The notes: generated from the letters alone by a model not told the origin. 64,000 nt of DNA from Candidatus Lambdaproteobacteria bacterium RIFOXYD2_FULL_56_26 (GCA_001783715.1 MFNF01000017.1:19366-83365); one strand, 5' to 3'. Numbered from the stretch's first letter, positions 21,601 through 47,768 are shown. Made by a program: numbers and translations.

Positions 21601-23031
21601 TTAAAACTCGGCATCCAAAGCAATCCAGGCGTAGTTACTGCCGGATTTCAGGAAACAAGGTTCGTTGATGTTGTAATCGTTGCCGGCACTGAATTCCATT
21701 ACTACTGAAACCAAATTTCCAACATTTGCATAGGCTGAAAGCAAGGACACGTTGTAGGAAACATAGTTGTTGTCCGAAGGCCTCCGAGAGTATCCCTGCC
21801 AAGTACCGCCATATGTCAAGTGGGGTAAGAAGAGTCTCATCGGCACCGGGGTAGAGAAGACCCCTTGGAAGGATAACCCGGAAGCAGACATGGCCCTGCA
21901 CAAAGCGACCTTGGTTTCTGGAAAGGTGGAGAAGCGGAAGTAAAAGGCTTGGGCCAATCGTAACTCCTCTTTGGCACACCGGAGATCAATCAAGGTTGCT
22001 ACCGGTCCTTCTTCAAGCTGCATCTGGCCCAGTTTGACCAGACCCCCGGCACCCAAGGAGCCGTCCGGCAAGACCAAAGCGAATTCCAATCCGTTCTCTA
22101 GGCCCGTGAAGGCAGAAAGATCAATCGTGGCCTTGACTTTGGTCCAAGTTGCAGGGGGGCAAGGTTGCAGAGCCTTGGTGGTATTGGCATTAAAGGCAAC
22201 AAAGGTGTCTTCCACGGTCGGGGTACAGTAGCGGATCGAAGGGGTGAAACTGCTGGCTCCGCCGTTGTAAATCCAGGCGGAATAGGTGGCCAACCCGCGG
22301 ATCATCGGGGTCATGGAGGCCTCGATTCGTTGCAGTACCTCAACCGTAGTCAGCCCGGTGGCACCGGTGAGCTGCATCAGGTACCGGCTTTTGCCGTTGG
22401 GCGGGTAGCCTGCCACCCGGTCAACCGTGACCGATGCCCCAAATGCAGTAATCATAAACCGGTCAGCCGCATATGCAGTAGTTGCGGTAAAAGTGGTCCC
22501 CCGTTGCCAAATGTCCAGGTTACCGTTGATCAGGACGTTTTTGAACCCCTGGGTCCGCTCCAACCTGGGGTTGCTCCGAGGGGCCAGGAAGTGGGCAAAG
22601 GGAGTGGTTCCGGGGGCGAGGATAGGGTCGTTGCCGGGGAGAGTAGCTTGGTAGTAGCCGGTGTAAAGTACCGGAAAAAGGTTGGAAGCATGGGCCAAGG
22701 CATTGTAGCCTTGGAGGGTGATTTTTTCGATCAGCCCGGTGTTGAGGTTGGCAAACCAAAGTTCGTGGGTGCTGCTGATGGTGACGGCCGTGTCGGCAAA
22801 GCTTTGGGTGGTCAAGGCTCCGGTGACAGGTTCATAAAACTCGACCACTAGATTTTTGAGCTGTCCTGAAATCGAATCATACTCACCTTCCAAGAGCCTA
22901 GTCTGGCTGTTGAGGCTGCTCAGGACCTGGGAAAGGATGTGGTAGCTGCGATAAAAGGGGCCGTCCCAGGTTTCGCTCCCTGGCTCGCTGTAACAAAGAC
23001 CTAAAGAGTCCATTTTTTCGGTAAACGCCAT
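21601..23031 (-). CDS. phage tail fibre-like protein, paralog 2
   Basis: 476 aa. The N-terminus (SEPGSETWDGPFYRSYHILSQVLSSLN) is near-identical to the next gene. A conserved mid-block (APRSNPRLERTQGFKNVLINGNLDIWQRG) is followed by a diverged C-terminal part. Position immediately after gpJ/gpI-like genes. Confidence 0.55.
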   Translation of the reverse strand: MAFTEKMDSLGLCYSEPGSETWDGPFYRSYHILSQVLSSLNSQTRLLEGEYDSISGQLKNLVVEFYEPVTGALTTQSFADTAVTISSTHELWFANLNTGLIEKITLQGYNALAHASNLFPVLYTGYYQATLPGNDPILAPGTTPFAHFLAPRSNPRLERTQGFKNVLINGNLDIWQRGTTFTATTAYAADRFMITAFGASVTVDRVAGYPPNGKSRYLMQLTGATGLTTVEVLQRIEASMTPMIRGLATYSAWIYNGGASSFTPSIRYCTPTVEDTFVAFNANTTKALQPCPPATWTKVKATIDLSAFTGLENGLEFALVLPDGSLGAGGLVKLGQMQLEEGPVATLIDLRCAKEELRLAQAFYFRFSTFPETKVALCRAMSASGLSFQGVFSTPVPMRLFLPHLTYGGTWQGYSRRPSDNNYVSYNVSLLSAYANVGNLVSVVMEFSAGNDYNINEPCFLKSGSNYAWIALDAEF

Positions 23032-23152
23032 CTGTGCCTCGTGGGGAATAAAGGAAAGGGAAAAGGAGTCATGGATCGGTTATTCCCCTTTTGATTCAAA
23101 AACGGCAGAGGGAAGGGATTCCGATCCCAGAGAAGGGGCAGACAACCGGGAG

Positions 23153-23182
23153 GAGAAAACAGGGCCTTTGGCAAAGGCCCTG
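23153..23182 (-). terminator. rho-independent terminator after tail-fibre gene 1
   Basis: Palindrome cagggcctttg-g-caaaggccctg just past the stop codon, followed on the minus strand by UUUUCUC. Confidence 0.55.
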
Positions 23183-23190
23183 GAGAGAGG

Positions 23191-24645
23191 TTAAAAGTCG
23201 CCTAAGATCCAAATATTCTCTTCAATCATGTAATAATAAGAAGCAGAGGGGACAGCACTAGTGGCATCGAAAAAGAGCATGGCACTGTAAAGCGTAATAT
23301 GTGACAAACTGGGATTGCTGAGTTGTATTGAACCGACAGAAAACCAAGTGATGGTTTCAGTTCCCGACTGCATTACGCTGAGAGCCGTGTTCGCCTTGGG
23401 CACTTGAAATCTTACATCTGCATAACAGACAGTGCCATCGAAGCCGTTAATGTGAGTCATGGCTGCGACTTTTTCCATGTACCGCTGGCAGAGCACCAGT
23501 TCTTCCTGCTCATTGCGAAATTCAAAGCCGGTGGGGATGGAGCCGACCTCCAGCTGCACCTGAGAAAGGGCAAAGTTGTTTAAGGTCCCCGCTTGGTTGA
23601 CTTGGTTTGCCGTACCGTACACCTGAGCGCCCGACCAACTGTCTTTGGCCCCCTGCCAATTGGAGCCGATCACCAAGGCCCAGTTGACTCGCAACCCAAC
23701 CACGCCGGGGCTGGTCAACCAGGAGGAAACTTGGTCGTCAAAGCGCAAGGTGATGGATTTTTTCTCCCAGCTGTTGGCGGCTTGGATGCTGTATTCGGCC
23801 AAGTAACTTCGGGTGCCGTCATGGTTGAGGAAAGAAACGCTGTAAGTCCCAGGGACTCCTGACCGGACCCAAAAGCTTAAGGTCAGTTCCTGGCCCAACA
23901 AAACCCTGGACAAGTGTCCTTCGATCCGTTGGCTGATAAAACAAAGAGAGTCCGGGGTGGAAGCCAGGGACGCATTGTTTTGGACGGTGGCCACATCGGT
24001 TTGAAAGCAATTTTTGGAATGGACCCCACTTTGGGAAGGCGTAGGAGGATTGTTTTCTAGGGCCACATTATAGACCGCCGTGCAAGTGGGATTGTTGTAA
24101 AAATACCAACGGTCCGCAGTGTACTGTGCCCCGCCGACCCCAAGAAAACTGGACCCTCGCTGCCAAATGTCAAAGTTTCCGTTCATAATCAGGTTCTTAA
24201 AATGCCGCTGTTTTTCCATCCTGGGGTTGGTCCTGGGGGCCAGGAGCTCGGCGAAGGGGGTCCGGGTTGCACCGGCGGATTGGTAAAAACCTGTGTAAAG
24301 TAAGGGAAATTTGTTGAGCTGATGGGAAACCGATTGGTAGTTGTCCAAGGTCTGTTTGGCGATTTGCCCGGTCAGGCTGTCGGCGTACCAAAGTTCCGGC
24401 AGGTCGGAGATGGTGACCCCCAGGTCCGGGAAAGCCATGCGGGTGAGGCTGTTGGCGGTAGGATTAAAAAACTCCACTTCGATGCCTTTGAGCAAACCAG
24501 TGGTGTCCGTAAGGGATTGATACTCCCCTTTGGTCAACCTAGATTGACCGTTGAGGTTGCTCAAAACGTGAGAAAGAATGTGATAAGACCGGTAAAAAGG
24601 TCCGTCCCAGGTCTCGCTGCCCGGTTCGCCAAACTGCAGTCCCAA
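23191..24645 (-). CDS. phage tail fibre-like protein, paralog 1
   Basis: 484 aa. Shares the N-terminal anchor block (EPGSETWDGPFYRSYHILSHVLSNLN) and the mid-block (APRTNPRMEKQRHFKNLIMNGNFDIWQRG) with 21601..23031. The distal part is diverged. Confidence 0.55.
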   Translation of the reverse strand: MGLQFGEPGSETWDGPFYRSYHILSHVLSNLNGQSRLTKGEYQSLTDTTGLLKGIEVEFFNPTANSLTRMAFPDLGVTISDLPELWYADSLTGQIAKQTLDNYQSVSHQLNKFPLLYTGFYQSAGATRTPFAELLAPRTNPRMEKQRHFKNLIMNGNFDIWQRGSSFLGVGGAQYTADRWYFYNNPTCTAVYNVALENNPPTPSQSGVHSKNCFQTDVATVQNNASLASTPDSLCFISQRIEGHLSRVLLGQELTLSFWVRSGVPGTYSVSFLNHDGTRSYLAEYSIQAANSWEKKSITLRFDDQVSSWLTSPGVVGLRVNWALVIGSNWQGAKDSWSGAQVYGTANQVNQAGTLNNFALSQVQLEVGSIPTGFEFRNEQEELVLCQRYMEKVAAMTHINGFDGTVCYADVRFQVPKANTALSVMQSGTETITWFSVGSIQLSNPSLSHITLYSAMLFFDATSAVPSASYYYMIEENIWILGDF

Positions 24646-24791
24646 AGGGTTGTTTTTTCGGTAAAGGCCATTTTGTTTCTCCTAGAGAGGGGTGATTTAA
24701 CTTCACCGATCTCACCGCACTTTTTGGTGTTTCATTAGCCGGAAAGCATTCCAAAATCACCAATTCAACCACTTTTTTAGCCCCGCTAGGC

Positions 24792-24830
24792 AAAAAAAAG
24801 CCCCGTCTCCTGGCCGTAAGGAGACGGGGC
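24792..24830 (-). terminator. strong rho-independent terminator between the gpI-like gene and the tail-fibre genes
   Basis: Perfect 11-bp GC-rich stem gccccgtctcc / ggagacggggc with a 9-nt loop, followed on the minus strand by U8 (complement of aaaaaaaa 24792-24799). Confidence 0.8.
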
Positions 24831-24849
24831 CGATTTAAAAAAAGGACTT

Positions 24850-25446
24850 TTAATGTCCCAAAAAAAACCAGCCTAGAGGCGAGACCCCCAACCCAACGGT
24901 TTTGGGTTCAGGTGGGTGGGCCAAGGCGTAGGCGGTTTCGGCCAGGGTTCGGCCCAGCTTTACCCGGCCCAGGCCGCCGGGCAGCCTGGGGTAAAGGATG
25001 TCGCTGCTGAATTTGCACCTCGCCGGGGAGATGTGCAGGATGTACTGGGTGATCAGGTTCATGTCGTTGGCCCCTGGGTCCAGACGGATCCGCAAACATT
25101 GGGGACCATAGAGTTCCCGGTACGGAAAGGTCGGGGACCTCAGGTCGATCCACTCGAAGTAGGAAAGCCCAAACAGGGTCTGGACCGCTTGCAGGGACCG
25201 GAGGGTCCCAAAATCTTGGGCTAAAATCTCATACCCTTGGATGTATTCCCGCTTGGACTGGTTCAATTCGGCGGGCCGGTTGGGCAGTTCCTCCCACCAC
25301 TGGTCAACCGCCGTGCCGGGCATGCTGTTGAAGTGAACCCAATCGGCAATTTGGTTCACCTTTTCCGTCATCAGCCCCCAACAAACTTCTTTGAGTTTGT
25401 ACAAGTGCAAAACCGGGGGGCTTTGCAACCACCATTTTGTAATCAT
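24850..25446 (-). CDS. phage tail protein I-like (P2 gpI / Mu gp48 family) baseplate protein
   Basis: 198 aa. WWEELPNRPAELNQSKREYIQGYEILAQDFGTLRSLQAV resembles the conserved W..W..kR..I...h..kGT core of Tail_P2_I. Located directly after baseplate J as in P2/Mu. Confidence 0.4.
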   Translation of the reverse strand: MITKWWLQSPPVLHLYKLKEVCWGLMTEKVNQIADWVHFNSMPGTAVDQWWEELPNRPAELNQSKREYIQGYEILAQDFGTLRSLQAVQTLFGLSYFEWIDLRSPTFPYRELYGPQCLRIRLDPGANDMNLITQYILHISPARCKFSSDILYPRLPGGLGRVKLGRTLAETAYALAHPPEPKTVGLGVSPLGWFFLGH

Positions 25447-25458
25447 CTCTGGCTCTTG

Positions 25459-26544
25459 TTAAGGAAGGATTGTAACCGTAGGGGAAAAATACTTGCCGAG
25501 CGGCAAAACGGCCGTTTCCGGGGTCAGGTGAATCGGGCTGCCCACCAATTCGGGCACATTGCGGTAAAGGTGATAGACCAACAGGGATTCATCGAAGTTT
25601 TGCCCTCTGGGCATACCGGCGAAATAAGTGTTCACTTGGTCCAATACTTTGGTTTCCAGGGCCAGGGGATGGGGGACAAAAAGTTGGATCGTCAAATTGA
25701 GGGTCTCGGAGCTGGCCAATTCCACTACCGCCAAGTCGGTGGCCATCAAAACCGATTCCAAGGCCACCAATGCATCGGCAGCGAGGTTAGAGTTGAGTCC
25801 GGCACCATAAAGGGTAAAATGGAGGGTAGCGGTAACCGGGTCCACCGAATCCAAAAGGGCAAATTCCACCTCCGGCACCGACAAAAGGGCCGCTTGGTAC
25901 TTGGCTTCAATCCCATAATCCAGGCTTTGGCTCCATTTTTTGTTTAAGATTCGGGTTCGTAGCTCCAGGTCGGTTTCCACGTCCGTTCCGGCGATTGCAG
26001 CAGCGAAGTTGGTAACGGTCAAAACGTTCAGGCCACCACTCACTTGGGTGATCTGGTTGTTGAGCAGGTTGTACTTTTGCCCGATTTCCAGCGCCTCTAC
26101 TAGGATGTCGCAGTTGGTGGTCGGAGCATCAAAACTGTAATTTTGTACAGGGACATAGGTCCGAGGGTTGGCCTCAAACACCGAAAAAAGAAGGTCGGTG
26201 GTGATCTCCAAAGGACTGGCGTTGGTCTTGGTGACCCGGACCCAAAGGCGGGCCTTGGCCCCCAGGCTACGGGTCAGGTCATAATCGGTGGCAAACCGCT
26301 CCAACCAAGTCCCGGTAGCGGAGCTGACGAACAGTTGGGGCAATAGGGCCTCTACGGCCTGCAAAAAAAGCCGGTAAGGTTCCTTAAAAAGAATCATCAA
26401 CAGGTTAAAAAAAACCGAGTTTTTGGTTATGGCGGCGTTCTCAAAGAGCGTCCCCACCGAGGCCTCCTTGATTTTGGTCTCCATGGCCGTGTCGTCGGCT
26501 AGGTTGATCTCTGCCATCATCTTTGAAAGCGTAGCTGCATCCAT
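25459..26544 (-). CDS. baseplate J-like protein (gpJ / gp47 / gp6 family)
   Basis: 361 aa. Size, position (after gp25/spike, before gpI and fibres) and overall pattern are consistent with Baseplate_J. Family membership not verified by search. Confidence 0.5.
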   Translation of the reverse strand: MDAATLSKMMAEINLADDTAMETKIKEASVGTLFENAAITKNSVFFNLLMILFKEPYRLFLQAVEALLPQLFVSSATGTWLERFATDYDLTRSLGAKARLWVRVTKTNASPLEITTDLLFSVFEANPRTYVPVQNYSFDAPTTNCDILVEALEIGQKYNLLNNQITQVSGGLNVLTVTNFAAAIAGTDVETDLELRTRILNKKWSQSLDYGIEAKYQAALLSVPEVEFALLDSVDPVTATLHFTLYGAGLNSNLAADALVALESVLMATDLAVVELASSETLNLTIQLFVPHPLALETKVLDQVNTYFAGMPRGQNFDESLLVYHLYRNVPELVGSPIHLTPETAVLPLGKYFSPTVTILP

Positions 26545-26634
26545 CTGGGTCCGTTAAAGGAAAGTTCCAAGTTTTATCTACCCTTTGTGGCCAAGGGCGG
26601 ACGGGGGAGAGGATAGGTCGGTCGGAAGTAAAAG

Positions 26635-26874
26635 TCAGCTGACCAGGGTAGAAGTGAAGGTCCCGGTGACCGGCCCCGAAGGACTGGTTCCGGTGATGGT
26701 CCCTGTGACCACTGCCTTTTTGACCTCCAGAACGATCAGGTTGATCAAGTCCTTGAGGTCCTGAGGGGCCACCGCCTGCTCGCCGTAGCGGCTTTGCAGC
26801 AGACTTTGGAATTGGGTGGCAATGCCGTTTGAATCCATGGCCATGGCGGTCCTATTTTTGGGTGGTTTTGCCAA
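26635..26874 (-). CDS. small hypothetical protein in the baseplate module (79 aa)
   Basis: Gly/Thr-rich C-terminus VVTGTITGTSPSGPVTGTFTSTLVS. Overlaps the spike gene 3' end; the true start may be an internal Met at about 26844. Could be a PAAR-like tip or plug, but no PAAR motif was recognised. Confidence 0.3.
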   Translation of the reverse strand: MAKPPKNRTAMAMDSNGIATQFQSLLQSRYGEQAVAPQDLKDLINLIVLEVKKAVVTGTITGTSPSGPVTGTFTSTLVS

Positions 26875-27445
26875 GTTTAACGTTAGATTTGATCAAGTCG
26901 TAGTTGTTTTTCAGGTTGGCTAGGTTTTGTTGCACCGTGGCAAGATTGGCCAGGGGGCTGCCCAGGTTCCCGGCTTGGCCCAACAGTTCAATGGCATCCA
27001 TAATCCCGGTCAAGAGATCACAAAGCTTGTTGGCCAAGACGGCAAAATCCTCTCCCGAACCGATTTCAATTTGGTCGGCTCCCTCTAAACGCAGAACCCC
27101 GGATTTTTGCTGCACCTCTTGCCCTTCGGGCATCAAGGCCAACAGCACCGCCTGGTTCATTCGCCAGTAGGGAAAAGCCAAAAGGCAAAGGTCGCCGGGC
27201 CTTGGGGGGTCAAAAATATGCCGGGAGACCCGATGCAGCGGAATCTGGGTCAAAGTGTTCAGGCCGGGCAAAGCCGTAAAGTCCCCGGCCAAAAGCTGAA
27301 CGTCGCAGCAGGCGTAAGGGGTCGCCTTGGAATGTTTCCCGGCGGCTTCATAGACCTTTTGCACTTTGGCGTAATACAGGTGCTGGTAGCCCCCCAAGCC
27401 CGGAAAGGCACGGAGTACCAGCTTTTTAAGATCCTTGAGCAGCAT
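26852..27445 (-). CDS. baseplate spike protein, gpV / Mu gp45-like (Phage_base_V OB-fold)
   Basis: YAKVQKVYEAAGK...VQLL...FDPPRPGDLCLLAFPYWRMNQAVLLALMP matches the gpV pattern (W.PP.vGeqVlvlf.gGd...gvvlg..y). C-terminal coiled-coil-like segment. Confidence 0.45.
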   Translation of the reverse strand: MLLKDLKKLVLRAFPGLGGYQHLYYAKVQKVYEAAGKHSKATPYACCDVQLLAGDFTALPGLNTLTQIPLHRVSRHIFDPPRPGDLCLLAFPYWRMNQAVLLALMPEGQEVQQKSGVLRLEGADQIEIGSGEDFAVLANKLCDLLTGIMDAIELLGQAGNLGSPLANLATVQQNLANLKNNYDLIKSNVKLGKTTQK

Positions 27446-27779
27446 ACAGCAGGTCCTCGAAGTACAGGGTCAAACTCTTGCCGGAGTCGTAGGAAAGCTC
27501 CAGCCGGAGATCCAATTTGGAGCCTTGGAGTTGGTGCTTGATGCTGCCGACCCGAATCTCCGGGTGAGACATTTCCAAACTGAACATCAGCTGGGTGGCG
27601 ATCAACTCGGCCTCTTCCGGTTCGGCACCAAAAAAAAGTCGGGCCAAGGGACTGTCCATCAAGGCAAGCTGGATCGATTGGGTCAAAGCGCCTTCTCCAG
27701 TCACCAGCAAAGGTTCGGCAAATTCATCGAGTTGAAAACCCAGAGAGACCGGGTCCCATTTAAGGTCGAGCAGGGTCAT
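27426..27779 (-). CDS. gp25 / gpW-like baseplate wedge protein (GPW_gp25 family)
   Basis: 117 aa. ALTQSIQLALMDSPLARLFFGAEP ... ELIATQLMFSLEMSHPEIRV parallels P2 gpW ISQSIGDILRTPVGSRVMRRDYG ... ELQIKVACYMAVLKWEPRV. Confidence 0.55.
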   Translation of the reverse strand: MTLLDLKWDPVSLGFQLDEFAEPLLVTGEGALTQSIQLALMDSPLARLFFGAEPEEAELIATQLMFSLEMSHPEIRVGSIKHQLQGSKLDLRLELSYDSGKSLTLYFEDLLYAAQGS

Positions 27780-27809
27780 GTCGTTGTTTGGTGTGAGGTT
27801 GGGGGGAAT

Positions 27810-28508
27810 CTACAAACCGGAGTAGCTGGCAAAGCGTAGGCACATGGTGCCGGTCGAGGACCGGTAGCTAACCTTGTCGAGTACCTCGGTCTTTCCTGCC
27901 CAAACAACGGGGAGGTAAGGGATCAGCCCACACAAGGGGGCCAACTCCGGTCCTTCCTCCAAGTTTGCCACTAGGTCCGAGACCGGCAAGGGGACCGGCT
28001 CAACCGGGAAATGCCCTTGTTCGAGCAGAACCAACCTTTTGGCAGCCGGGTCGAGGTACCAACGGCTGGCACCCAAAGAGTAGATCTCTTGGAGTTGGTC
28101 CAGGCCGTTGCGCAGGCTCCCCAAGACTACTAGGCTTTCCACTTGGGAGGAGGGCACGGAGAGTTGGGAGGTAAAGCCAAGCCTTGCTTCGGCGGCAAGC
28201 GTCTTGAAGGCCTGGAGGTAGTTTTTTTGACTGATCTGCCGCCGGACCTGGGTCTCCAAAAGGCCGTGCAAGAGGCCGACCGCAAAACATTCAAAATGAA
28301 GCCCATCGGGCGATTTGACGGCAGTAACCTGTACCTCGCCGCAGGAAAAAACCTGGGTTCCCTCACCGAGGGCCAGTAAAAAGGGCTTGGAAGGATCGAT
28401 CGGTTCTTCCACCGCAAAATTCACCACACAGGGCCGCTGCCGCTCCAGGACAAGTTCAAACTCAACGGTTTGGAACGCCTGGGTTTGGTTGGAGAGCGTG
28501 ATCAACAT
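27810..28508 (-). CDS. hypothetical tail/baseplate protein (232 aa), possibly hub (gpD/gp44-like) component
   Basis: Position between the tape-measure-position gene and gp25. No motif recognised. Confidence 0.35.
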   Translation of the reverse strand: MLITLSNQTQAFQTVEFELVLERQRPCVVNFAVEEPIDPSKPFLLALGEGTQVFSCGEVQVTAVKSPDGLHFECFAVGLLHGLLETQVRRQISQKNYLQAFKTLAAEARLGFTSQLSVPSSQVESLVVLGSLRNGLDQLQEIYSLGASRWYLDPAAKRLVLLEQGHFPVEPVPLPVSDLVANLEEGPELAPLCGLIPYLPVVWAGKTEVLDKVSYRSSTGTMCLRFASYSGL

Positions 28509-28537
28509 AACAGGAACCTTTGGGGCTAAATAACGGT

Positions 28538-29245
28538 TTAGGCCTGATTTCTGGCGGCCACAAGGGAAAGGGCGGCGTTTTCGGGATTTACCTCGACCAC
28601 CCTAGGCATTCCGCTTTTGATCAACTTCTTTTGGGTTTCGTTCAGGTAAGGGACCATTTCCAAGGTCACGGTGGCCCGGTCTGCGCCAAGCTCCAGCCGC
28701 CGGTTTTTTAAGGTCACATACTGGACCCCCAATGCCCTGGTGTAGGGGTGGAGAATCTCGTAGTAATGGCCATCAAAAAAGAACCGATGGAAACTGGCCA
28801 ACCGGCTTTCCAAGGAAAAAATCTCCCCTTCGTTTGATTCGGATTCCCCCAGGGAGCCATAAAGCCAAGCCTCGACCTGAAGCAGGGTATGGCTCAGGTG
28901 TTGCGGACCGGTCTTTTGGCTGCTTTCTAGGATCGAAAGAATCCGGCCAAAAACAAAACTTTCCAGTTCGATCGCCAAACGACTGCTGGCGGAAACGGTG
29001 GCACCGATTCTTTCGGTGGCCTTTTGGCCAAAGGCGGCGATGCTGGCGAGCAGGTCTGCCTTTGGGTCCCGGGCGGCTTTGGGCTGGCTTGGAGCAAGGG
29101 TTTGGGTCAAACCTTGGGTGACCAAGGGATTCTCCACCAGCTTGCGAAGCACCAGGGGACTCTCGGAGGTGCGGTTGGTGTTTTGTTTCATGTGGTTCCT
29201 AAAAAGTTTGGTGGCTTCGACCTGATGATCGAGGCTGGGTCCCAC
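28538..29245 (-). CDS. hypothetical tail/baseplate protein (235 aa)
   Basis: Co-oriented and tightly spaced within the tail module. No motif recognised. Confidence 0.35.
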   Translation of the reverse strand: MGPSLDHQVEATKLFRNHMKQNTNRTSESPLVLRKLVENPLVTQGLTQTLAPSQPKAARDPKADLLASIAAFGQKATERIGATVSASSRLAIELESFVFGRILSILESSQKTGPQHLSHTLLQVEAWLYGSLGESESNEGEIFSLESRLASFHRFFFDGHYYEILHPYTRALGVQYVTLKNRRLELGADRATVTLEMVPYLNETQKKLIKSGMPRVVEVNPENAALSLVAARNQA

Positions 29246-29259
29246 CCAAAGTGGTGGGG

Positions 29260-30282
29260 CTAACCGGCCTGGGCTGCGGTTTGGGGCGTAATGCCCCCTT
29301 CCAATTTATAGTTGAAGGTTTGTTGGTTATAAACCTTGTGCTGGTGCTGGTGAATCTCTTGGACCAACTTGGGTTCCTGGGTCCTTCGTAGGTGCCCCGC
29401 CGTAGGTTTTCCCGGAACAAAGGTCCAGGGTTTTTGGCCTGCTGCGGTTCCCGTTCTTTGGGAGCTTTGGCCGGGTCTTACATTCCCGGTTTGGTTTGCT
29501 CCCTTGGCCGGGGAATAAATCTGCGAAAACTCCGGCGAGCCGGTCAGAGTAAACACCCCAAAGCCTGGGGGGAAAACAGACAACCCAACCGTGGCGGGTT
29601 GGCCATTCATGGGCAAAAAACTCTTGGCGAGCGAAGGACCGGGTGGCAGGTTCAACGGGAAAAGTCCCCCAATCCTTGGGCACCGGTCTGCTTGCATTGG
29701 CAGCTCTCTCGGGGCCGGGGTTGCCAAAGGGGCGAATGTTTCTTGCGGCCAAGGCTCCACCAAGCGGGGGTGAACTGGGTCCGGTACCGGAGACAGGGCC
29801 TCCGGTCGGGCCGAGAGCAGCTCCGGTTTTGGGAACCCCAATGGCAGATGCTTGGAGCAATCCAAGACCGGTTTTTTCCCAGGAAGGGCCTGGTCCCCTA
29901 CCCCCAAAACCTGCTCTTGGGGCATTGCCTTTTGGGGCTCTCTTTGGGGGACCGAAGCGGGGCTCGCCCAGGGGGTCTGGATTGAGGCCTTGGGGGTGTG
30001 GTTAAAAATCCTGGGGAGCAACACCGCCGCTTGTGGCTGGGATACAAGTTTTGGGGCGGCAGGAAACCCCTTTTGTCCTTTGGGGGCCACAAACAGTGGG
30101 GGTTCCCACAACTCGACCCAGGGGCTTTCTCCGAGCCTCCCAACCTCCGGCAAAGGCCAAACCTCCGACCAAACCGGGTCCGGAAAAATCGGCAACCACA
30201 AAGCCATTTGGGCCATAAAAGCTTCCATCACCTGGGCCAAGGTGGACTCTAAAATCGGGCCAGAATCAAGCGTTCCTTCCAT
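29260..30282 (-). CDS. Pro-rich low-complexity protein (340 aa) in the tape-measure position
   Basis: Longest frame in a region where both strands carry overlapping ORFs, which is typical of low-complexity high-GC DNA. About 20% Pro, predicted disordered. Located where Mu/P2-type clusters encode the tape measure. Confidence 0.35.
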   Translation of the reverse strand: MEGTLDSGPILESTLAQVMEAFMAQMALWLPIFPDPVWSEVWPLPEVGRLGESPWVELWEPPLFVAPKGQKGFPAAPKLVSQPQAAVLLPRIFNHTPKASIQTPWASPASVPQREPQKAMPQEQVLGVGDQALPGKKPVLDCSKHLPLGFPKPELLSARPEALSPVPDPVHPRLVEPWPQETFAPLATPAPRELPMQADRCPRIGGLFPLNLPPGPSLAKSFLPMNGQPATVGLSVFPPGFGVFTLTGSPEFSQIYSPAKGANQTGNVRPGQSSQRTGTAAGQKPWTFVPGKPTAGHLRRTQEPKLVQEIHQHQHKVYNQQTFNYKLEGGITPQTAAQAG

Positions 30283-30445
30283 AGGGCCTAGAGGTTAAAG
30301 AGGAGTTCACGAAGTGCGGATTTGTCCCTTTCTTCAAAGTGTAAGGCCAATGCGGCGGCCAGAAGAAAGGCTTCCTCGTCCAGTTGATTGGGATCGGCGG
30401 CAAGCCGGTGACGTAAAATCAGACCATTCAAGACCTCGACTTCAT

Positions 30446-30778
30446 TCAAACGCCGGTCTTGAGCTCGCCGATAATAGCCTGATTCCCCGCTAAAAAAGGA
30501 GCGAGCCGCAAAATGAGGTTGAGTTCCAAGGTGAAGTTCGTCGGGTCGTTTAAAAGTCGGACCAAGTCATTTTTCTGTTCCGGAACAACACAAAGCAAAA
30601 GCCATTTGCGGGCGGTTTCGATCCGTTTGAGTTCTCCGGCATAATAATCGGCGGCAAACTCAGCCACTTGAAGCCGGGTGAAGCCAAAGCGGAACTCAAA
30701 GTTTTCTTCCAAAAAGCGCACCGGAAGAACGGCGTTTCGGCAATGCATCATCACATTGCTTTCGGAAGTTGGGTTCAT
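30446..30778 (-). CDS. small protein (110 aa), possible tail assembly chaperone (gpE / gp41-like position)
   Basis: Between the tube gene and the tape-measure-position gene. No motif recognised. Confidence 0.3.
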   Translation of the reverse strand: MNPTSESNVMMHCRNAVLPVRFLEENFEFRFGFTRLQVAEFAADYYAGELKRIETARKWLLLCVVPEQKNDLVRLLNDPTNFTLELNLILRLAPFLAGNQAIIGELKTGV

Positions 30779-30936
30779 GGTGTCTCAAGTTGCAGCTGTA
30801 AAAAAGGGTTTGCCCAAGGGGAGGCAGGCCCTCCCCCAGGGGGCCGAGGGGAAGTCCCTCGGCCAGGGCCCGGACCAAGGTACCTTGGTCCGGGTAGGAA
30901 CCGAAGCCCATTGAGGGGACGTTCGGCCCAAAAGCC

Positions 30937-31374
30937 CTAGATGCCGCCTTTGATGGGCGGGCGTACCACCGAAACCCCGTTGACCAAAACATCGCCAGGC
31001 AAGATGGGCAATTCAAACTCAACGGCACCGCCGTTGAGTTTGTTGAGGTCGGGCAACTTGAACATCACCCGAACATTTTTCAAGGTGACCACAAAAGGCT
31101 CTTCGCCTGCGGGGCTGATGTCGAAGTTGATGAACGGAATCGGGGCGATGTCCTGCCAAGAACCGGCGGTTTTTGCCATGTTGGCGAAATGTTTCACCGT
31201 TTCTGCTTTGAGCAGGATGCTTCCCTTGGGGTCCACCCAACTTTTGGAGACCACCCCTTTTTCGATTTTGATGTAATCGGGGATCTCCAGTTTGATGGCG
31301 GTTGCGGTAATCATCTCGCCGTCGGAACTGATGATCCTCAAATCATAAGCGTCATATGCCGTTGCTCCAGCCAT
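30937..31374 (-). CDS. phage tail tube protein-like
   Basis: 145 aa, immediately downstream of the sheath gene with a 15-nt gap. Size and position typical of contractile-tail tube proteins. Confidence 0.45.
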   Translation of the reverse strand: MAGATAYDAYDLRIISSDGEMITATAIKLEIPDYIKIEKGVVSKSWVDPKGSILLKAETVKHFANMAKTAGSWQDIAPIPFINFDISPAGEEPFVVTLKNVRVMFKLPDLNKLNGGAVEFELPILPGDVLVNGVSVVRPPIKGGI

Positions 31375-31389
31375 TCTTGTCTCCTAAGG

Positions 31390-32685
31390 TTAGATTTGGT
31401 TGATCAGTTCGATCGTCGAGTCCACCACCTTGATGCGGTTGACATCGGTAAGGGTGAAGAGGATGGAAATTCCCCCGGTGATCCAAGCGGTCGAAAGACT
31501 GTAGTCAAACAGCTCGCGGCTTTTGCCCGGAACCGGCTTTTTCATTTCTTCCAAACCCCGAGCGGCGATCTGAGCGGCCGCCATGGCCCCGCTGGCATCT
31601 TTGTTGAACTGGTTGGAGTTGATCAGGGGGAAGGCATAAAACAAGATGCCCCGCTTGGCCTTGTTGACCACCCGCCGTTGGGCCAAGGTAGTGACGGTAT
31701 CGGTGACCGAGTGCATGACCAAGTCGTCGTTGACGTAAACCGCCGAGGGATCTTCCACAAACCGTTTGAGGAACAGGCCCCGCCCTTCGTCTAGAACCAC
31801 GTATTGGGAATGGCCATAGCGGCTGTCGGTGGAAACCCCGACCATTGAACCATCGAGCACCTTGCCCAAAGAGGATTGGACTGGAATCCGAGCCAACCGA
31901 CCTCCAATGGCACCCATCCACTTGTCTTGGGTGGTCGGAGCCAAAATAGCCACCGAGCTGGAAGCAAAGGTCAAAAACTCGGCCTTAAAATTGGCGGCAT
32001 AAGAAGTGGGGGTTTCCTCCACTTTGTCACCGGCACCCCAAGTGTGGGCCACAGAGGACAAAGTGATGCCGATGGTCCCGGCGTTGGCATCCACCGAAGC
32101 GATGGGGTGCAGCCCAGCGAAGGGATTGGAACCTTGGATTTCAACGGTTTGTCCGACTTTGAGGTCGTGGCCCACACCGATGGTTAAGGTCAACTCGGTC
32201 GGAACGGTGGTAAAGTCGGCCGTCCCGGTTTGAGCCACATGGTAGGCTTTGCGGTACTGGATCACTGCCTCGAAGTACTGCTTTTGCGCTTCTTGGGCAG
32301 CGATGGCGCTACCCAGAGCATCGGCAAAAGCCAGATCCGCTGGGGACAGGAAGAACAGGGTGGAAACCTGATGGTTGGCTGCCAAATCGGCGATTTGGGC
32401 GGCCAAATTTGCGGCAATCAACTGGCCGGGAGCAACCAAGTAAACAACAGCCCAAAAGTTGGAGTTGCCGTTTGCCTGGGCGGTTTGAAGCTCAGAGATC
32501 AATGAGGCGCTACCGGCGAAGGTAGCCGAAAGGTCGGAGGTAAGGTCGATCACATACATTCCGGTCATGCTGGGGTGCTCGGCAAAATAGGCCTGTTTGA
32601 ACTCTTGGCCTTGGGGTGCCGATGCTCCGCCGGAGGTGATCTCTTGCAGGGTGATTCCGGTAACGGTCATTGGGTTTTTCTCCAA
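31390..32685 (-). CDS. phage tail sheath protein-like
   Basis: 431 aa; largest structural protein at the head of the module, followed by the tube gene. C-terminal ...ILFTLTDVNRIKVVDSTIELINQI. Assignment by context and size. Confidence 0.5.
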   Translation of the reverse strand: MEKNPMTVTGITLQEITSGGASAPQGQEFKQAYFAEHPSMTGMYVIDLTSDLSATFAGSASLISELQTAQANGNSNFWAVVYLVAPGQLIAANLAAQIADLAANHQVSTLFFLSPADLAFADALGSAIAAQEAQKQYFEAVIQYRKAYHVAQTGTADFTTVPTELTLTIGVGHDLKVGQTVEIQGSNPFAGLHPIASVDANAGTIGITLSSVAHTWGAGDKVEETPTSYAANFKAEFLTFASSSVAILAPTTQDKWMGAIGGRLARIPVQSSLGKVLDGSMVGVSTDSRYGHSQYVVLDEGRGLFLKRFVEDPSAVYVNDDLVMHSVTDTVTTLAQRRVVNKAKRGILFYAFPLINSNQFNKDASGAMAAAQIAARGLEEMKKPVPGKSRELFDYSLSTAWITGGISILFTLTDVNRIKVVDSTIELINQI

Positions 32686-32784
32686 TTGAGGGTTGTTGTT
32701 GGTTCACAAAGTGGAACCGGACGAAAGGGGGAAGAGAGGCCCCCCGGCCTATCAAAGCTTCCTTTTTAACCGGAAAAGGAGCGC

Positions 32785-33219
32785 TTAAATTCCAATCAGA
32801 TCCTCCCGCTCCAAAGCTTTGTATTCGACTCCCTTGTAGAAAATTCGGCTGTCTGCAGGGATCGAAGCCAGTTCTTCGGGAAGAATCAAACTCCAGCTCA
32901 GCCGCTCGACCAGCCGGAGCAAAAAGACGACCTTCAGGTGCAGCGAATCGACCTCGGTGGCGCTTTGGGAAAAACTTTCTCCAAGATGCCCATAAAGGGC
33001 GAACCATTCCTTGACCAACAAACTTAGGCTCAAGTGGTCTCGGGTTTTGTGGACCGGGTTGATTTCCAACTTGACCTGGTAAAGTTGGTCGATTTGTTTG
33101 GGGGTGGCACCGACCTCATAACCTTGGGTCTCTACGGACAAAATTAAAGGGACAAAGCTGGGGGCGGTGACCCCCGAATTGGCCACCAAGAAGTCAATCA
33201 AACTTTGGGCACGTTGCAT
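32785..33219 (-). CDS. hypothetical protein, first gene of the tail-like module (possibly DUF4255-like or tail completion)
   Basis: 144 aa. IDQLYQVKLEINPVHKTRDH loosely resembles the DUF4255 LfLYdirEN..lR block. Weak. Confidence 0.3.
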   Translation of the reverse strand: MQRAQSLIDFLVANSGVTAPSFVPLILSVETQGYEVGATPKQIDQLYQVKLEINPVHKTRDHLSLSLLVKEWFALYGHLGESFSQSATEVDSLHLKVVFLLRLVERLSWSLILPEELASIPADSRIFYKGVEYKALEREDLIGI

Positions 33220-47764: not shown

Positions 47765-47768
47765 TTCC

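What the first reader, a model, noticed from the sequence alone, without database searches (positions are those of the whole stretch)
21601..33219. Head-less contractile phage-tail-like module: candidate tailocin or eCIS-like particle
Fourteen tightly packed minus-strand genes encode, in order: an unknown 144-aa protein, a sheath-like protein, a tube-like protein, a small protein, a Pro-rich protein, two ~230-aa proteins, a gp25/W-like protein, a gpV-like spike, a 79-aa protein, a baseplate J-like protein, a gpI-like protein and two tail fibres. This matches the order of Mu/P2 myovirus tail-plus-baseplate modules. Within the 64 kb there is no capsid, portal, protease, terminase, integrase, repressor or replication gene. 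The module is bracketed by pcm/usp on one side and a PHP hydrolase/DUF790-like gene on the other, so it looks like a domesticated tail-only particle locus (R-type-pyocin-like tailocin or eCIS-like) rather than a prophage. I found no AAA+ ATPase, which is the eCIS hallmark. The only lysis candidate is a 66-aa two-TM ORF. If the family calls hold, this would be an uncharacterised tailocin/eCIS lineage with atypical components (items below).
Basis: partly seen in the sequence, partly recalled or inferred. Interest (0 to 1): 0.82.

Follow-up and report, generated by a model that had tools for sequence, protein, structure and literature searches.

The report
Head-less contractile phage tail, domesticated
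An uncultured groundwater bacterium (Candidatus Lambdaproteobacteria) has kept only the contractile tail half of an unstudied phage lineage, intact and under selection, so it is probably a tailocin-like puncturing particle, though it has an odd proline-rich length ruler and no lysis genes.

Summary
Window 21601-33219 (minus strand) carries 14 intact, tightly packed tail genes, plus a 15th product made by a -1 frameshift. The rest of the 64 kb is chromosomal: Rho, SHMT, pcm, usp, the pel operon and sensor kinases.

The sheath call is solid: DUF2586, phrog_907, and an AlphaFold model (pLDDT 86.7) that matches pyocin, diffocin, AFP and PVC sheaths. Baseplate J and both fibres are also confirmed. 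The other gene calls rest on position and indirect homology.

The sheath family is tiny, about 21 close representatives among 1.84 billion proteins. All six more distant relatives whose context I examined sit in phage structural clusters; five contigs show P2-type head genes. The window's sheath falls in one clade with at least three further lineages (locus context read in four lineages in all). All four have the same tail-only layout in unrelated chromosomal sites.

Against its syntenic orthologue, dN/dS is 0.03-0.35 and dS equals that of the flanking housekeeping genes. This is a long-retained domesticated element, not a decaying prophage and not an eCIS (no AAA+ ATPase).

Two features are atypical. 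The tape-measure-position protein is short, 15.6% proline and free-drifting in its centre. The lysis segment present in one phage relative is absent. Bactericidal function is inferred, not shown.

The parts
33220..33379 (-). Upstream intergenic region between divergent pcm and g1; candidate promoter or operator
   Evidence: It contains blocks conserved with the syntenic locus L006 (73% identity overall). The 10-mer TTCCACCTTA lies at 33288-33297 and is its only occurrence in the window. The same degenerate motif lies upstream of g1 in L006, L001 and L002, but not in L015. The motif was found post hoc, and its function is inferred.
32785..33219 (-). g1, 144 aa: gpR-like tail terminator (cap)
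   Evidence: phmmer matches L010 3097-3525 at 6.6e-12, and weaker matches hit the equivalent genes of L007, L009 and L011. The L010 protein hits Pfam P2_Phage_GpR at 1.6e-5, 25.5 bits against a cut-off of 25. The gene at the equivalent position in L017 (just upstream of gpS) also carries P2_Phage_GpR. gpR is the tail terminator in P2 (10.64898/2026.09.14.750843). dN/dS 0.076.
31390..32685 (-). g2, sheath. The likely true start is M6 at 32670, giving 426 aa.
   Evidence: DUF2586 4.6e-21 and phrog_907 1.2e-20. AF2 pLDDT 86.7, with Foldseek hits to contractile sheaths. The ~70-aa beta-rich insertion at residues ~147-225 is ancestral in the family. dN/dS 0.068.
30937..31374 (-). g3, 145 aa: tube protein (inferred)
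   Evidence: phrog_1182 'tail protein' 6e-4. Homologous to the gene directly after the sheath in the phage relatives L007, L009, L010 and L011 (1e-25 to 1e-43); in L017 and L018 a gene in that position was seen but not compared. 99% identical to L006, with dN/dS 0.028. No PDB sequence hit.
30446..30778 (-). g4, 110 aa: tail assembly chaperone (P2 gpE / lambda gpG type)
   Evidence: Homologous to the gene upstream of the tape-measure gene in the phage relatives. It carries the frameshift site described in the next part.
30288..30778 (-). g4-g4' fusion, ~163 aa, made by a programmed -1 ribosomal frameshift at the slippery heptamer T_TTT_TTA (30497-30491). Its stop codon TAG is at 30290-30288, 5 nt before the g5 ATG.
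   Evidence: The -1 frame is open for 69 codons. An in-register slippery heptamer and a homologous 65-72 aa extension peptide are present in L006, L002, L001, L015 and in the phages L007, L009, L010 and L011. The 'intergenic' g4-g5 DNA is 93% identical to L006. This corresponds to the conserved G/GT (P2 E/E') chaperone frameshift; that comparison rests on established knowledge.
29260..30282 (-). g5, 340 aa: atypical protein in the tape-measure position, 15.6% Pro
   Evidence: No Pfam or PHROG hit. The N-terminal 62 aa and C-terminal 55 aa are conserved with L006. The central ~220 codons are 48% identical at DNA level, about the same as shuffled sequence (41-47%), yet the ORF stays open in both. 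A C-terminal motif, VYNQQ..Y....GGIT, is shared with the equivalent proteins of L001 and L002. Phage relatives have 557-838 aa proteins here with a PhageMin_Tail domain; the three whose composition was checked (650-838 aa) have 1-2% Pro.
28538..29245 (-). g6, 235 aa (L006 was called from a later start, 217 aa): first gene after the ruler; candidate tube initiator (gpU-like), by position only
   Evidence: Conserved in L006, L001 and L002 (two copies in L002), with a weak match to L007 14423-14971. dN/dS 0.27. No family or PDB hit.
27810..28508 (-). g7, 232 aa: candidate baseplate hub, by position only
   Evidence: Homologous to the 236-237 aa proteins at the same position in phages L007, L009 and L011 (1e-12 to 1e-25). 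No family or PDB hit.
27426..27779 (-). g8, 117 aa: candidate sheath initiator (gp25/gpW-like)
   Evidence: Homologous to the L009 113-aa protein (3.8e-17), which hits Pfam DUF2590 at 1.4e-6. It lies next to J in L007 and L011. The gp25 fold was not verified. dN/dS 0.069.
26852..27445 (-). g9, 197 aa: candidate central spike (Mu gp45 / P2 gpV type)
   Evidence: phrog_4011 'baseplate protein' 1.5e-9. The AF2 model is low-confidence (pLDDT 58): an N-terminal beta-barrel plus a C-terminal helical hairpin. The top Foldseek hit is Mu baseplate chain 9ki1_V (194 aa) at E 2.9e-3, followed by generic OB folds and PVC spike chains. dN/dS 0.076.
26635..26874 (-). g10, 79 aa: small lineage-specific protein, role unknown. 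It occupies about the size and place of a 'glue' or spike-tip protein.
   Evidence: Conserved in L006 (80% identity, dN/dS 0.18). There is a weak 71-aa counterpart in L002 and none in L001. No family hit.
25459..26544 (-). g11, 361 aa: baseplate wedge J
   Evidence: PF04865 1.4e-14 and phrog_6 4.5e-30. Only remote hits (<30% identity) in cultured phages.
24850..25446 (-). g12, 198 aa: candidate wedge partner and fibre socket (gpI-like), by position
   Evidence: Homologous to the gene after J in all related loci. No family hit.
24799..24831 (-). Terminator-like hairpin (13-bp stem, T7) just after g12
23191..24645 (-). g13, 484 aa: tail fibre 1
   Evidence: phrog_4492 8.8e-47. The N-terminal ~150 aa are shared with g14 and with the fibres of related loci. 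The C-terminal part resembles annotated fibre or carbohydrate-binding proteins of cyanophages, HMO-2011 and Pseudomonas phages.
23160..23182 (-). Terminator-like hairpin (10-bp stem) after g13
21601..23031 (-). g14, 476 aa: tail fibre 2 (paralogue with a different C-terminal domain)
   Evidence: phrog_4492 7.7e-30. 39% identical to the L006 g13 orthologue, against 89% for g13 itself.
21477..21516 (-). Strong terminator-like hairpin (18-bp stem plus T-run) that ends the module

Best explanation
The locus is a domesticated, head-less contractile tail particle: an R-type tailocin-like element. It descends from an uncultured myophage lineage that pairs a P2-type head module with a DUF2586-type sheath.

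**Proposed assembly (parts shown or inferred as marked elsewhere).**
- Hub (g6, g7), spike (g9), sheath initiator (g8) and wedges (g11 J, g12) would form the baseplate.
- The g4 and g4-g4' chaperones, the second made by a -1 frameshift, would load the ruler protein g5.
- The tube (g3) and sheath (g2) would polymerise on the baseplate.
- The gpR-like terminator (g1) would cap the particle.
- Two alternative fibres (g13, g14) would bind surface carbohydrate on a target cell.

**Proposed action.** Fibre binding triggers the baseplate, the sheath contracts, and the tube and spike are driven through the target envelope.

**Shown:** the parts list, the absence of head genes, the phage ancestry, long vertical retention and purifying selection.

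**Inferred:** that particles are actually made, that they act outside the cell, and that they kill. The release route is unknown because no lysis cassette is present.
For: **1. Parts.** Sheath, J and fibres are confirmed. Terminator, tube, chaperone, spike and gp25-like protein are supported indirectly. The gene count matches the minimal P2 tail set R, FI, FII, E/E', T, U, D, W, V, X, J, I, H as listed in 10.64898/2026.09.14.750843.

**2. No head genes.** None occur in the 64 kb. In L001 the module is bounded on both sides by chromosomal sensor genes.

**3. Ancestry.** All six more distant sheath relatives examined (P0006-P0010 and P0018) sit in phage structural clusters. Five contigs carry P2-type head genes (Phage_cap_P2, GPO scaffold and/or gpM). 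Portal and terminase are visible on two. The 8.7-kb P0010 contig shows only the tail-proximal part: gpR, gpS, lysozyme and a PhageMin_Tail tape measure.

**4. Single origin of the head-less form.**
- The head-less sheaths form one clade at 57-92% identity, against 47% or less to phage-borne sheaths.
- They share one derived layout: gpR is fused directly upstream of the sheath; gpS and the genes between are deleted; and the tape measure is short, proline-rich and lacks PhageMin_Tail.
- This layout occurs in four lineages at unrelated chromosomal sites.

**5. Selection.** Window against syntenic L006 gives dN/dS 0.03-0.27 for 12 genes and 0.35 for g5. Module dS is 0.57-0.74 for 11 of the 13 genes (tube 0.27, g5 1.28) and flank dS is 0.61-0.90. 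There is no GC anomaly.

**6. Frameshift retained.** The chaperone -1 frameshift is conserved in all head-less and phage loci. This argues that the assembly pathway is still in use.

**7. Class.** The absence of an AAA+ ATPase together with the presence of fibres is the phage/R-type-bacteriocin pattern, not the eCIS pattern (criteria in PMC12210884).
Against: - No holin, endolysin or spanin gene, and no regulator, was found in or beside any head-less locus. Characterised R-type tailocin loci carry these (my own knowledge).
- In the phage relative L017 a lysozyme sits in exactly the segment that the head-less loci have lost.
- The ruler protein is not a canonical helical tape measure (15.6% Pro), so normal tube assembly is not guaranteed.
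- In the TamC13-09 MAG the gene caller found only a 91-aa C-terminal ORF at the tape-measure position.
- In the RIFOXYD12-type locus the fibre is reduced to its N-terminal 152 aa, so at least one lineage may be losing function.
- Several baseplate assignments (g6, g7, g10, g12) rest on position alone.
- There are no expression, particle or killing data.
Confidence: 0.6

Rival explanations
1. It is a cryptic prophage remnant: an inert leftover of a deleted prophage with no present function.
For: - There are no lysis or regulatory genes.
- The tape-measure region is degenerate-looking.
- The fibre is truncated and an integrase lies ~7 kb downstream in the RIFOXYD12-type locus.
Against: - All 14 ORFs are intact in both the window and L006, despite dS of about 0.65.
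- dN/dS is 0.03-0.27, as low as in the flanking housekeeping genes.
- The frameshift signal and the -1 extension peptide are conserved.
- The same reduced architecture persists in four divergent lineages (sheath 57-74% identity), which implies retention over a long period.
Confidence: 0.1
2. It is an effector-delivering contractile injection system rather than a pore-forming bacteriocin. The payload would be the variable ruler protein itself, or something bound to it. In some lineages the producer would be protected by the adjacent secreted protein, as in toxin-immunity pairs.
For: - The centre of g5 has diverged to the level of random sequence while its termini and neighbours are conserved.
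- In the RIFOXYD12-type locus the cassette [TMP-like gene, opposite-strand signal-peptide protein, g6-like gene] is anciently duplicated.
- In two strains that are 99.8% identical, identity collapses inside the 3' third of the TMP-like gene and through the secreted-protein gene. This is a polymorphic-cassette pattern.
- Tape measures are ejected first into the target; this point rests on established knowledge.
Against: - No toxin domain was detected in any TMP-position protein.
- The window and L006 have no secreted partner gene.
- The neutral-rate drift of the g5 centre is equally explained by a disordered spacer with no sequence constraint.
- There is no AAA+ ATPase or other eCIS loading machinery.
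Confidence: 0.15
3. It is the tail half of a split or cooperative system. Heads would be encoded elsewhere in the genome, or by another element such as a capsid-forming satellite or a GTA-like head locus, and would join these tails to make DNA-carrying particles.
For: - The gpR-like terminator is retained. In P2 this is the protein that contacts the head-to-tail adaptor (10.64898/2026.09.14.750843).
- There is no lysis cassette of its own, which would fit dependence on another element.
Against: - The gpS-like tail-completion gene and the gene in the gpL (head-to-tail adaptor) position, which flank gpR in the phage relatives, are absent from all head-less loci.
- The same preprint says the terminator is also the cap protein of tailocins.
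- No head gene occurs within 21 kb on one side or 31 kb on the other.
Confidence: 0.1
4. It is an intracellular or envelope-anchored contractile system. It would fire inside or from the producer, for example in stress-induced cell death or contact-dependent firing, so no lysis genes would be needed.
For: No lysis genes were found. The locus sits beside stress (usp, pcm) and biofilm (pel) genes in the window and L006.
Against: - No membrane anchor was found; no module protein has a clear TM segment.
- Two receptor-binding fibres with carbohydrate-binding-type domains argue for an external target.
- The neighbourhood differs in the other lineages.
Confidence: 0.05

Closest known systems
Uncultured myophages with a P2-type head and a DUF2586 sheath (metagenomic contigs L007/L008, L009, L010, L011, L017, L018)
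   Same: They share homologous tail genes in the same co-linear order: gpR, sheath, tube, frameshifting chaperone, the two post-ruler proteins, the DUF2590-like protein, spike-like protein, J, the I-like protein and the fibre N-terminus. phmmer values range from 1e-5 to 1e-103.
   Different: - Together, the phage contigs carry portal, Terminase_6N, GPO scaffold, Phage_cap_P2, gpM and gpS, and one (L017) carries a lysozyme.
- They have a 557-838 aa PhageMin_Tail tape measure, with 1-2% Pro in the three checked.
- All of these are missing or replaced in the window.
R-type pyocin R2 of Pseudomonas aeruginosa and other P2-derived tailocins
   Same: - Both are head-less contractile particles encoded in the chromosome, with terminator/cap, sheath, tube, chaperone, ruler, hub, spike, gp25-like protein, J/I wedge and fibres, and no AAA+ ATPase.
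- The sheath fold matches 3j9q.
- The terminator is homologous to the tailocin cap, according to 10.64898/2026.09.14.750843.
   Different: - Similarity is at fold level only; there is no sequence hit.
- From my own knowledge, pyocin loci carry holin, lysin and the PrtN/PrtR regulators, and use a canonical helical tape measure. None of these is found here.
- The gene order here is co-linear, not P2-split.
- The domestication event and the host phylum are independent.
Bacteriophage P2 tail (Peduovirus)
   Same: It has the same minimal parts count. The phage relatives of this module use P2-type head, gpR and gpS families.
   Different: - The sheath family is DUF2586, not detectably similar in sequence to cultured-phage sheaths (no tblastn match among 50,697 phage records).
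- No LysM gpX was detected.
- The gene order differs.
Extracellular contractile injection systems (Afp, PVC, AlgoCIS, tCIS)
   Same: The sheath fold is similar; the best Foldseek hits include PVC and AFP sheaths at 1.8e-8 to 1e-7. Both are head-less particles.
   Different: - There is no AAA+ ATPase (Cis15/Afp15), no duplicated sheath or tube paralogues, and no PAAR, cargo or toxin genes.
- Ancestry is from a tailed phage with a P2-type head (criteria from PMC12210884).
Diffocin, PBSX and Mu-type co-linear tail modules
   Same: They share the co-linear order sheath, tube, chaperone (frameshift), ruler, hub, spike/gp25, J, I, fibre. The diffocin sheath CD1363 is the best TM-score match (0.56/0.67). 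The best hit for g9 is a Mu baseplate chain.
   Different: There is no sequence-level relationship. Those elements have canonical tape measures, and PBSX and diffocin have lysis genes (my own knowledge).

Membership tests
R-type tailocin (contractile phage-tail-like bacteriocin) | Encodes a complete contractile tail: sheath, tube, baseplate with spike, fibres, ruler plus chaperone, and terminator | tested here: met
   Sheath, J and fibres are confirmed directly. Terminator, tube, chaperone with frameshift, spike and the gp25-like protein are supported indirectly. Hub, initiator and the I-like protein rest on position only. The ruler is atypical.
R-type tailocin (contractile phage-tail-like bacteriocin) | Lacks capsid, packaging, replication and integration genes | tested here: met
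   No such family occurs in the 64-kb window. L001 is bounded on both sides by chromosomal genes. Four head-less lineages are known.
R-type tailocin (contractile phage-tail-like bacteriocin) | Stably inherited chromosomal locus under purifying selection | tested here: met
   The locus is syntenic in L006, with dN/dS 0.03-0.35 and dS equal to that of the flanking genes.
R-type tailocin (contractile phage-tail-like bacteriocin) | Dedicated lysis cassette (holin/endolysin) and stress-responsive regulator in the locus | tested here: not met
   No lysis or regulator family and no TM protein occurs in the module. The 66-aa ORF lies behind a terminator and has no counterpart in other loci. The lysozyme-bearing segment of phage L017 is deleted here.
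R-type tailocin (contractile phage-tail-like bacteriocin) | Particles are produced and kill related bacteria | not testable with these tools
   This needs induction, EM and killing assays. The host is uncultured.
Extracellular contractile injection system (Afp/PVC-type eCIS) | AAA+ ATPase (Cis15/Afp15) in the locus | tested here: not met
   No ATPase domain occurs in any module ORF or immediate neighbour. The criterion is from PMC12210884.
Extracellular contractile injection system (Afp/PVC-type eCIS) | Cargo, toxin or PAAR-type spike-tip genes | tested here: not met
   No Pfam toxin or PAAR hit was found. The downstream neighbours are DUF790 and a PHP hydrolase.
Functional or recently inactivated prophage | Head, packaging, integrase and att/tRNA features contiguous with the tail genes | tested here: not met
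   None is present. There are 21 kb and 31 kb of chromosomal genes on the two sides, no tRNA, and no GC anomaly.
Canonical tape measure protein (PhageMin_Tail / helical TMP) | PhageMin_Tail domain or a long helical, proline-poor sequence | tested here: not met
   g5 and its counterparts in L006, L001 and L002 have no Pfam hit even at E<=1; the L015 counterpart was not scanned. Pro content is 6-16%, against 1-2% in phage TMPs.
Canonical tape measure protein (PhageMin_Tail / helical TMP) | Encoded directly after a chaperone gene with a -1 frameshift; conserved C-terminal end | tested here: met
   The frameshift product ends 5 nt before the g5 ATG. The C-terminal motif is shared among the head-less loci.
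Contractile sheath superfamily | Sheath fold | tested here: met
   The AF2 model has pLDDT 86.7 and pTM 0.85. There are 53 PDB matches at E<=1e-3; the listed ones are all sheath chains or tail assemblies of phages, pyocin, diffocin and eCIS.

The most novel reading that the evidence does not exclude
The head-less clade may be a distinct kind of domesticated contractile particle that has given up both the phage lysis cassette and the helical tape measure.

- Its ruler would be an intrinsically disordered, proline-rich protein held only by conserved N- and C-terminal anchors.
- The free-evolving, strain-polymorphic middle of that protein would be the delivered payload or specificity determinant.
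- In some lineages it would be paired with a co-varying secreted protein acting as immunity.
- Release would occur by a non-canonical route.
Probability: 0.15. Interest if true: 0.8.

Novelty: new variant of a known kind. Interest (0 to 1): 0.55.

Why it matters
**An independent domestication.** Characterised tailocins come almost entirely from cultured Proteobacteria and Firmicutes. This would be a separate, old domestication in an uncultured groundwater lineage, Candidatus Lambdaproteobacteria. In NCBI, the module genes whose names were returned (tube, spike-like and J) are all 'hypothetical protein'.

**Rare ancestry.** The parent phage lineage has no cultured member. Its sheath family has only about 21 close representatives among 1.84 billion proteins.

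**Traceable steps.** Both the phage-borne and the head-less forms are available. The steps of domestication can therefore be read directly:
- loss of the head block
- loss of the gpS-to-lysis segment
- replacement of the tape measure

**Two testable questions.**
- Can a contractile tail be measured or assembled on a non-helical, proline-rich ruler?
- How is a tailocin released without its own lysis genes?

If the ruler cassette proves to be a polymorphic payload, that would be a new way of arming a phage-tail particle.

Tried and rejected
**Searches that found nothing**
- tblastn of the sheath and of g9 against 50,697 phage records gave no match. J gave only hits below 30% identity.
- An IMG/VR scan with the sheath alignment found nothing.
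- The word-indexed protein search found only 5 sheath relatives and 4 g9 relatives.
- Profile searches of the PDB by sequence found nothing meaningful for the sheath, g1, g3, g7, g8 and g9, using alignments of 4-8 sequences.
- NCBIfam gave no hit for ten of the module proteins (g5, J and the fibres were not scanned). The literature holds no paper containing 'DUF2586'.
- hhalign between the module's own families, testing for example whether g6 or g7 resemble the tube, gave nothing.

The folds of g7 and g8 therefore remain untested.
- The g9 model from 5 sequences was poor (pLDDT 58).

**Ideas considered and rejected**
- The sheath 'insertion' is not a novelty; it is ancestral in the family.
- g5 is not driven by tandem-repeat slippage; TRF finds nothing.
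- The 66-aa ORF is a poor holin candidate: it lies behind a terminator and has no counterpart in any fetched locus (its region is not covered by L006).
- The upstream motif TTCCRCCTKA is not a firm regulatory element. It was found post hoc and is absent from L015.

Full report
**1. Observation**

The 14 minus-strand ORFs are present as described. In window coordinates:

| Gene | Coordinates | Length (aa) |
|---|---|---|
| g1 | 32785-33219 | 144 |
| g2 | 31390-32685 | 431 (probable true start M6, 426) |
| g3 | 30937-31374 | 145 |
| g4 | 30446-30778 | 110 |
| g5 | 29260-30282 | 340 |
| g6 | 28538-29245 | 235 |
| g7 | 27810-28508 | 232 |
| g8 | 27426-27779 | 117 |
| g9 | 26852-27445 | 197 |
| g10 | 26635-26874 | 79 |
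| g11 | 25459-26544 | 361 |
| g12 | 24850-25446 | 198 |
| g13 | 23191-24645 | 484 |
| g14 | 21601-23031 | 476 |

Direct family hits:
- g2 matches DUF2586 (4.6e-21) and phrog_907 'tail sheath'.
- g11 matches Baseplate_J and phrog_6.
- g13 and g14 match phrog_4492 'tail fiber'.
- g9 matches phrog_4011 'baseplate protein' (1.5e-9).
- g3 matches phrog_1182 'tail protein' only weakly (6e-4).
- Nothing else hits Pfam, PHROGs or NCBIfam.

An AlphaFold2 model of g2, built on a 23-sequence alignment, reached pLDDT 86.7 and pTM 0.85. Its Foldseek matches in the PDB are contractile sheaths throughout: PVC, AFP, diffocin CD1363 (TM 0.56/0.67), R2 pyocin 3j9q and many phages. The 'contractile' part of the claim is therefore sound.

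**2. Surroundings**

Exact-sequence look-ups show that the window comes from a Candidatus Lambdaproteobacteria MAG (Rifle-type; for example OGG99600 and OGH03333), on contigs of up to 180 kb. The module genes whose NCBI names were returned (tube, g9, J) are called 'hypothetical protein'.

The rest of the window is ordinary chromosome:
- XPB-like helicase, SHMT, CheY, carbonic anhydrase and Rho
- an FtsK_4TM protein, a PHP hydrolase and DUF790
- pcm, usp, and a pel operon running from PelG to a GH114 gene
- cytochrome c and several sensor kinases

ORFs with no Pfam hit also gave no PHROG hit. There is no tRNA and no GC anomaly. There are 21 kb of host genes on one side and 31 kb on the other.

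**3. Relatives and ancestry**

The sheath family is very rare.
- The word-indexed search of 5.8 billion proteins returned five relatives.
- An exhaustive HMMER scan of 1.84 billion cluster representatives returned 57 hits. About 21 of these are full-length family members. All ten that I looked up are metagenomic singleton clusters.

I looked up the genomic context of six of the more distant members, which are 28-43% identical to the window's sheath.
- All six lie in phage structural gene clusters.
- Five contigs (P0006-P0009, P0018) carry P2-type head genes: Phage_cap_P2 with the GPO scaffold and/or the gpM small terminase.
- Portal and Terminase_6N are visible on two contigs (P0009, P0018).
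- The 8.7-kb P0010 contig covers only the tail-proximal part.
- Downstream of the head genes, where covered, come head completion genes, a gpR-like gene, gpS and a few further genes. These include a lysozyme in L017.
- Then follow sheath, tube, chaperone, a 557-838 aa PhageMin_Tail tape measure and the baseplate genes.

The close members behave differently. In a neighbour-joining tree the window's sheath groups with P0001-P0005 as one clade. Identity within the clade is 57-92%. Identity to any phage-borne sheath is 47% or less. Every member of this clade with enough sequence is head-less:

| Locus | Source | Context |
|---|---|---|
| Window and syntenic L006 | Candidatus Lambdaproteobacteria | between pcm/usp/pel and PHP/DUF790 |
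| L002-L005, L012, L013 | another Lambdaproteobacteria MAG, RIFOXYD12-type | upstream flank: EF-G, TrkH, HIT, hemerythrin, FliG |
| L001 / L014 | MAG TamC13-09 | bounded on both sides by 7TMR-DISM sensor genes |
| L015 | metagenome contig | |

All four share the same derived layout:
- The gpR-like gene lies immediately upstream of the sheath.
- gpS and the genes between it and the sheath are gone.
- The protein in the tape-measure position is short and proline-rich.

The simplest reading is a single reduction event, followed by long diversification and relocation.

**4. Is it maintained?**

I compared the window with L006 by Nei-Gojobori.
- dN/dS is 0.03 (tube) to 0.27 for twelve genes and 0.35 for g5. 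There are no stop codons in either copy.
- dS of the module is 0.57-0.74 for eleven of the thirteen genes compared. The tube (0.27) and g5 (1.28) are the exceptions.
- dS of the flanking usp, pcm, pelG and pelF genes is 0.61-0.90.

The element was therefore already in place when these two lineages split. It has since been held under constraint as strong as that on housekeeping genes. That is hard to reconcile with an inert remnant.

**5. Gene-by-gene mapping onto the phage relatives**

- **g1** matches the gene just upstream of gpS in the phages. The L010 copy passes the curated cut-off of Pfam P2_Phage_GpR, and the gene at that position in L017 carries the same family in its precomputed Pfam list. 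In P2, gpR is the six-fold tail terminator. It anchors the top sheath ring and is homologous to the tailocin cap (10.64898/2026.09.14.750843).
- **g4** matches the chaperone gene upstream of the tape measure.
- **g7, g8, g9 and g12** each match genes at the equivalent positions. The g8 homologue in L009 hits DUF2590. The g8/g9 order varies between phages.
- **g6** has only a weak phage match.
- **g10** is confined to the head-less clade.
- **g9**: a five-sequence AF2 model was poor (pLDDT 58). It showed an N-terminal beta-barrel plus a helical hairpin. Its best PDB match was a 194-residue chain of the Mu baseplate (9ki1_V, E 2.9e-3), among generic OB folds. This gives weak support for a spike.

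The roles of tube initiator, hub, glue and gpI-like protein are assigned by position and size only. They rest on analogy to the P2 minimal set in the same preprint.

**6.

The 163-nt 'gap' between g4 and g5 is 93% identical to L006. That is more conserved than synonymous sites in the coding genes.
- It is coding in the -1 frame. A slippery heptamer T_TTT_TTA lies at 30497-30491, in register with g4 codons 95-96.
- The heptamer leads into a 69-codon open frame that stops at 30290-30288, 5 nt before the g5 ATG.
- An in-register heptamer and a homologous 65-72 aa extension peptide are present in all head-less loci and in the phages L007, L009, L010 and L011.

This is the conserved chaperone frameshift of long-tailed phages (lambda G/GT, P2 E/E'; established knowledge). 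Its retention implies that the ruler-dependent assembly pathway is still selected.

**7. The atypical ruler**

g5 has no family hit even at E<=1 and is 15.6% proline. The three phage tape measures whose composition I checked are 1-2% proline.

Compared with its syntenic orthologue:
- The N-terminal 62 residues are conserved (85% DNA identity).
- The C-terminal 55 residues are conserved (80% DNA identity).
- The central ~660 nt are 48% identical. That is essentially the level obtained with shuffled sequence (41-47%).
- The reading frame nevertheless stays open in both, at similar length (223 and 217 codons) and similar composition.

With neighbouring dS of about 0.65, this is roughly neutral-rate drift under constraint on openness, length and composition only. 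It fits a disordered spacer between two anchors. No tandem repeats explain it.

The C-terminal motif (V/I)Y(N/H)QQ..Y....GG(I/L)(T/S) is shared with the equivalents in L001 and L002. The L015 equivalent is 349 aa with 12.9% proline. A short, proline-rich, PhageMin_Tail-less ruler is thus a shared derived trait of the head-less clade. How such a protein would set tail length is unexplained. In TamC13-09 the gene caller recognised only the last 91 codons at this position.

**8. Release and regulation**

- No holin, endolysin, spanin, repressor or activator was found in or next to any head-less locus, and no module protein has a clear TM segment.
It begins with TTG inside an 18-bp-stem terminator that follows g14, and it has no counterpart in any fetched locus. 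Its region is not covered by L006.
- Terminator-like hairpins also follow g12 and g13. The two fibre genes may therefore be separate transcription units.
- A 10-mer, TTCCRCCTKA, occurs once per locus, upstream of g1, in three of the four lineages. It was found post hoc.

**9. Classification**

The criteria summarised in PMC12210884 are as follows. Phages and R-type bacteriocins have fibres and a tape measure but lack the AAA+ ATPase. eCIS have the ATPase. By these criteria the locus is of the phage/R-type-bacteriocin class, not an eCIS.

It meets the structural and evolutionary criteria of an R-type tailocin. It fails the 'own lysis cassette and regulator' criterion, and its activity cannot be tested here. 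I therefore describe it as tailocin-like: a new variant of a known kind, from an independent domestication in an uncultured lineage.

**10. Verdict**

| Claim | Confidence |
|---|---|
| It is a long-maintained, head-less contractile tail element | ~0.8 |
| It acts as an extracellular, fibre-targeted puncturing particle | ~0.6 |
| It specifically kills competitors | lower, and untested |

The main open points are the ruler and the release route. A third is the polymorphic [ruler, secreted protein] cassette in the sister lineage, which keeps a more novel, effector-type reading alive at about 0.15.

Noticed in passing
L002 12278-17824 (also L012, L013); L004 13380-14001: In the RIFOXYD12-type head-less locus the cassette [TMP-like 460 aa, opposite-strand ~200-aa signal-peptide protein with 4 Cys, g6-like gene] is duplicated. 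The two copies are only 33-40% identical at protein level. Two assemblies that are 99.8% identical over 13.4 kb diverge abruptly to 65-74% from the 3' third of the TMP-like gene through the secreted-protein gene. This looks like a recombination breakpoint in a polymorphic cassette.
   Followed up: partly
L012 8327-8785 and 9589-17287: In the same sister locus the fibre gene is reduced to the N-terminal 152 aa. It is followed by TPR, PEGA and two Lcl_C (DUF1566) proteins, and by a tyrosine integrase on the opposite strand about 7 kb downstream.
   Followed up: partly
L017 1663-2556: In a phage relative, a Phage_lysozyme gene and two small ORFs (79 and 76 aa) lie between gpS and the sheath. This is exactly the segment missing from all head-less loci.
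   Followed up: no
L014 11965-13211 (same DNA as L001 12129-13223): The source's gene caller did not call the 364-aa ORF at the tape-measure position in MAG TamC13-09. It called only 47-aa and 91-aa pieces; the 91-aa piece carries the conserved C-terminal motif.
   Followed up: no
window 30779-30936: The 158-nt gap between the tube gene and the chaperone gene is 87% identical to L006, more conserved than synonymous sites. Phage L007 has a 63-aa ORF at this position. I found no convincing ORF here.
   Followed up: partly
window 33288-33297; L001 9401-9410; L002 9310-9319; L006 9376-9385: The motif TTCCRCCTKA occurs once in the 64-kb window (0.7 expected). It occurs once in each of these loci, always 70-160 nt upstream of g1 on the coding strand. 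It is absent upstream of g1 in L015. The motif was derived post hoc.
   Followed up: partly
window 435-1835 and 19185-21192: An XPB-like helicase (NF045503, 3e-47) and a DUF790 protein lie 18 kb apart rather than adjacent. DUF790 is, to my knowledge, the Bax1 nuclease family that usually partners XPB. A PHP hydrolase sits next to DUF790, and an FtsK_4TM-only protein lies at 18383-19192.
   Followed up: no
window 35643-51825: A long pel-type exopolysaccharide operon (PelG, a glycosyltransferase, TPR proteins, GH114) runs on the minus strand. It is syntenic in L006, where a small PilZ protein lies between PelG and usp.
   Followed up: no
window 21601-24849: The two fibre paralogues share an N-terminal ~150-aa attachment domain but differ in their C-terminal domains. 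Each is followed by its own terminator-like hairpin, and a third hairpin precedes them after g12. Unlike L001, which has a Phage_tail_APC chaperone after its single fibre, no fibre chaperone was detected here.
   Followed up: partly
window 10941-12773, 15641-16786, 45527-47764, 48630-49949, 59807-60742: These large flanking ORFs gave no match in the libraries they were scanned against. 10941-12773 and 15641-16786 were scanned with Pfam, PHROGs and NCBIfam. 59807-60742 was scanned with Pfam and PHROGs. The two ORFs inside the pel region (45527-47764, 48630-49949) were scanned with Pfam only.
   Followed up: no
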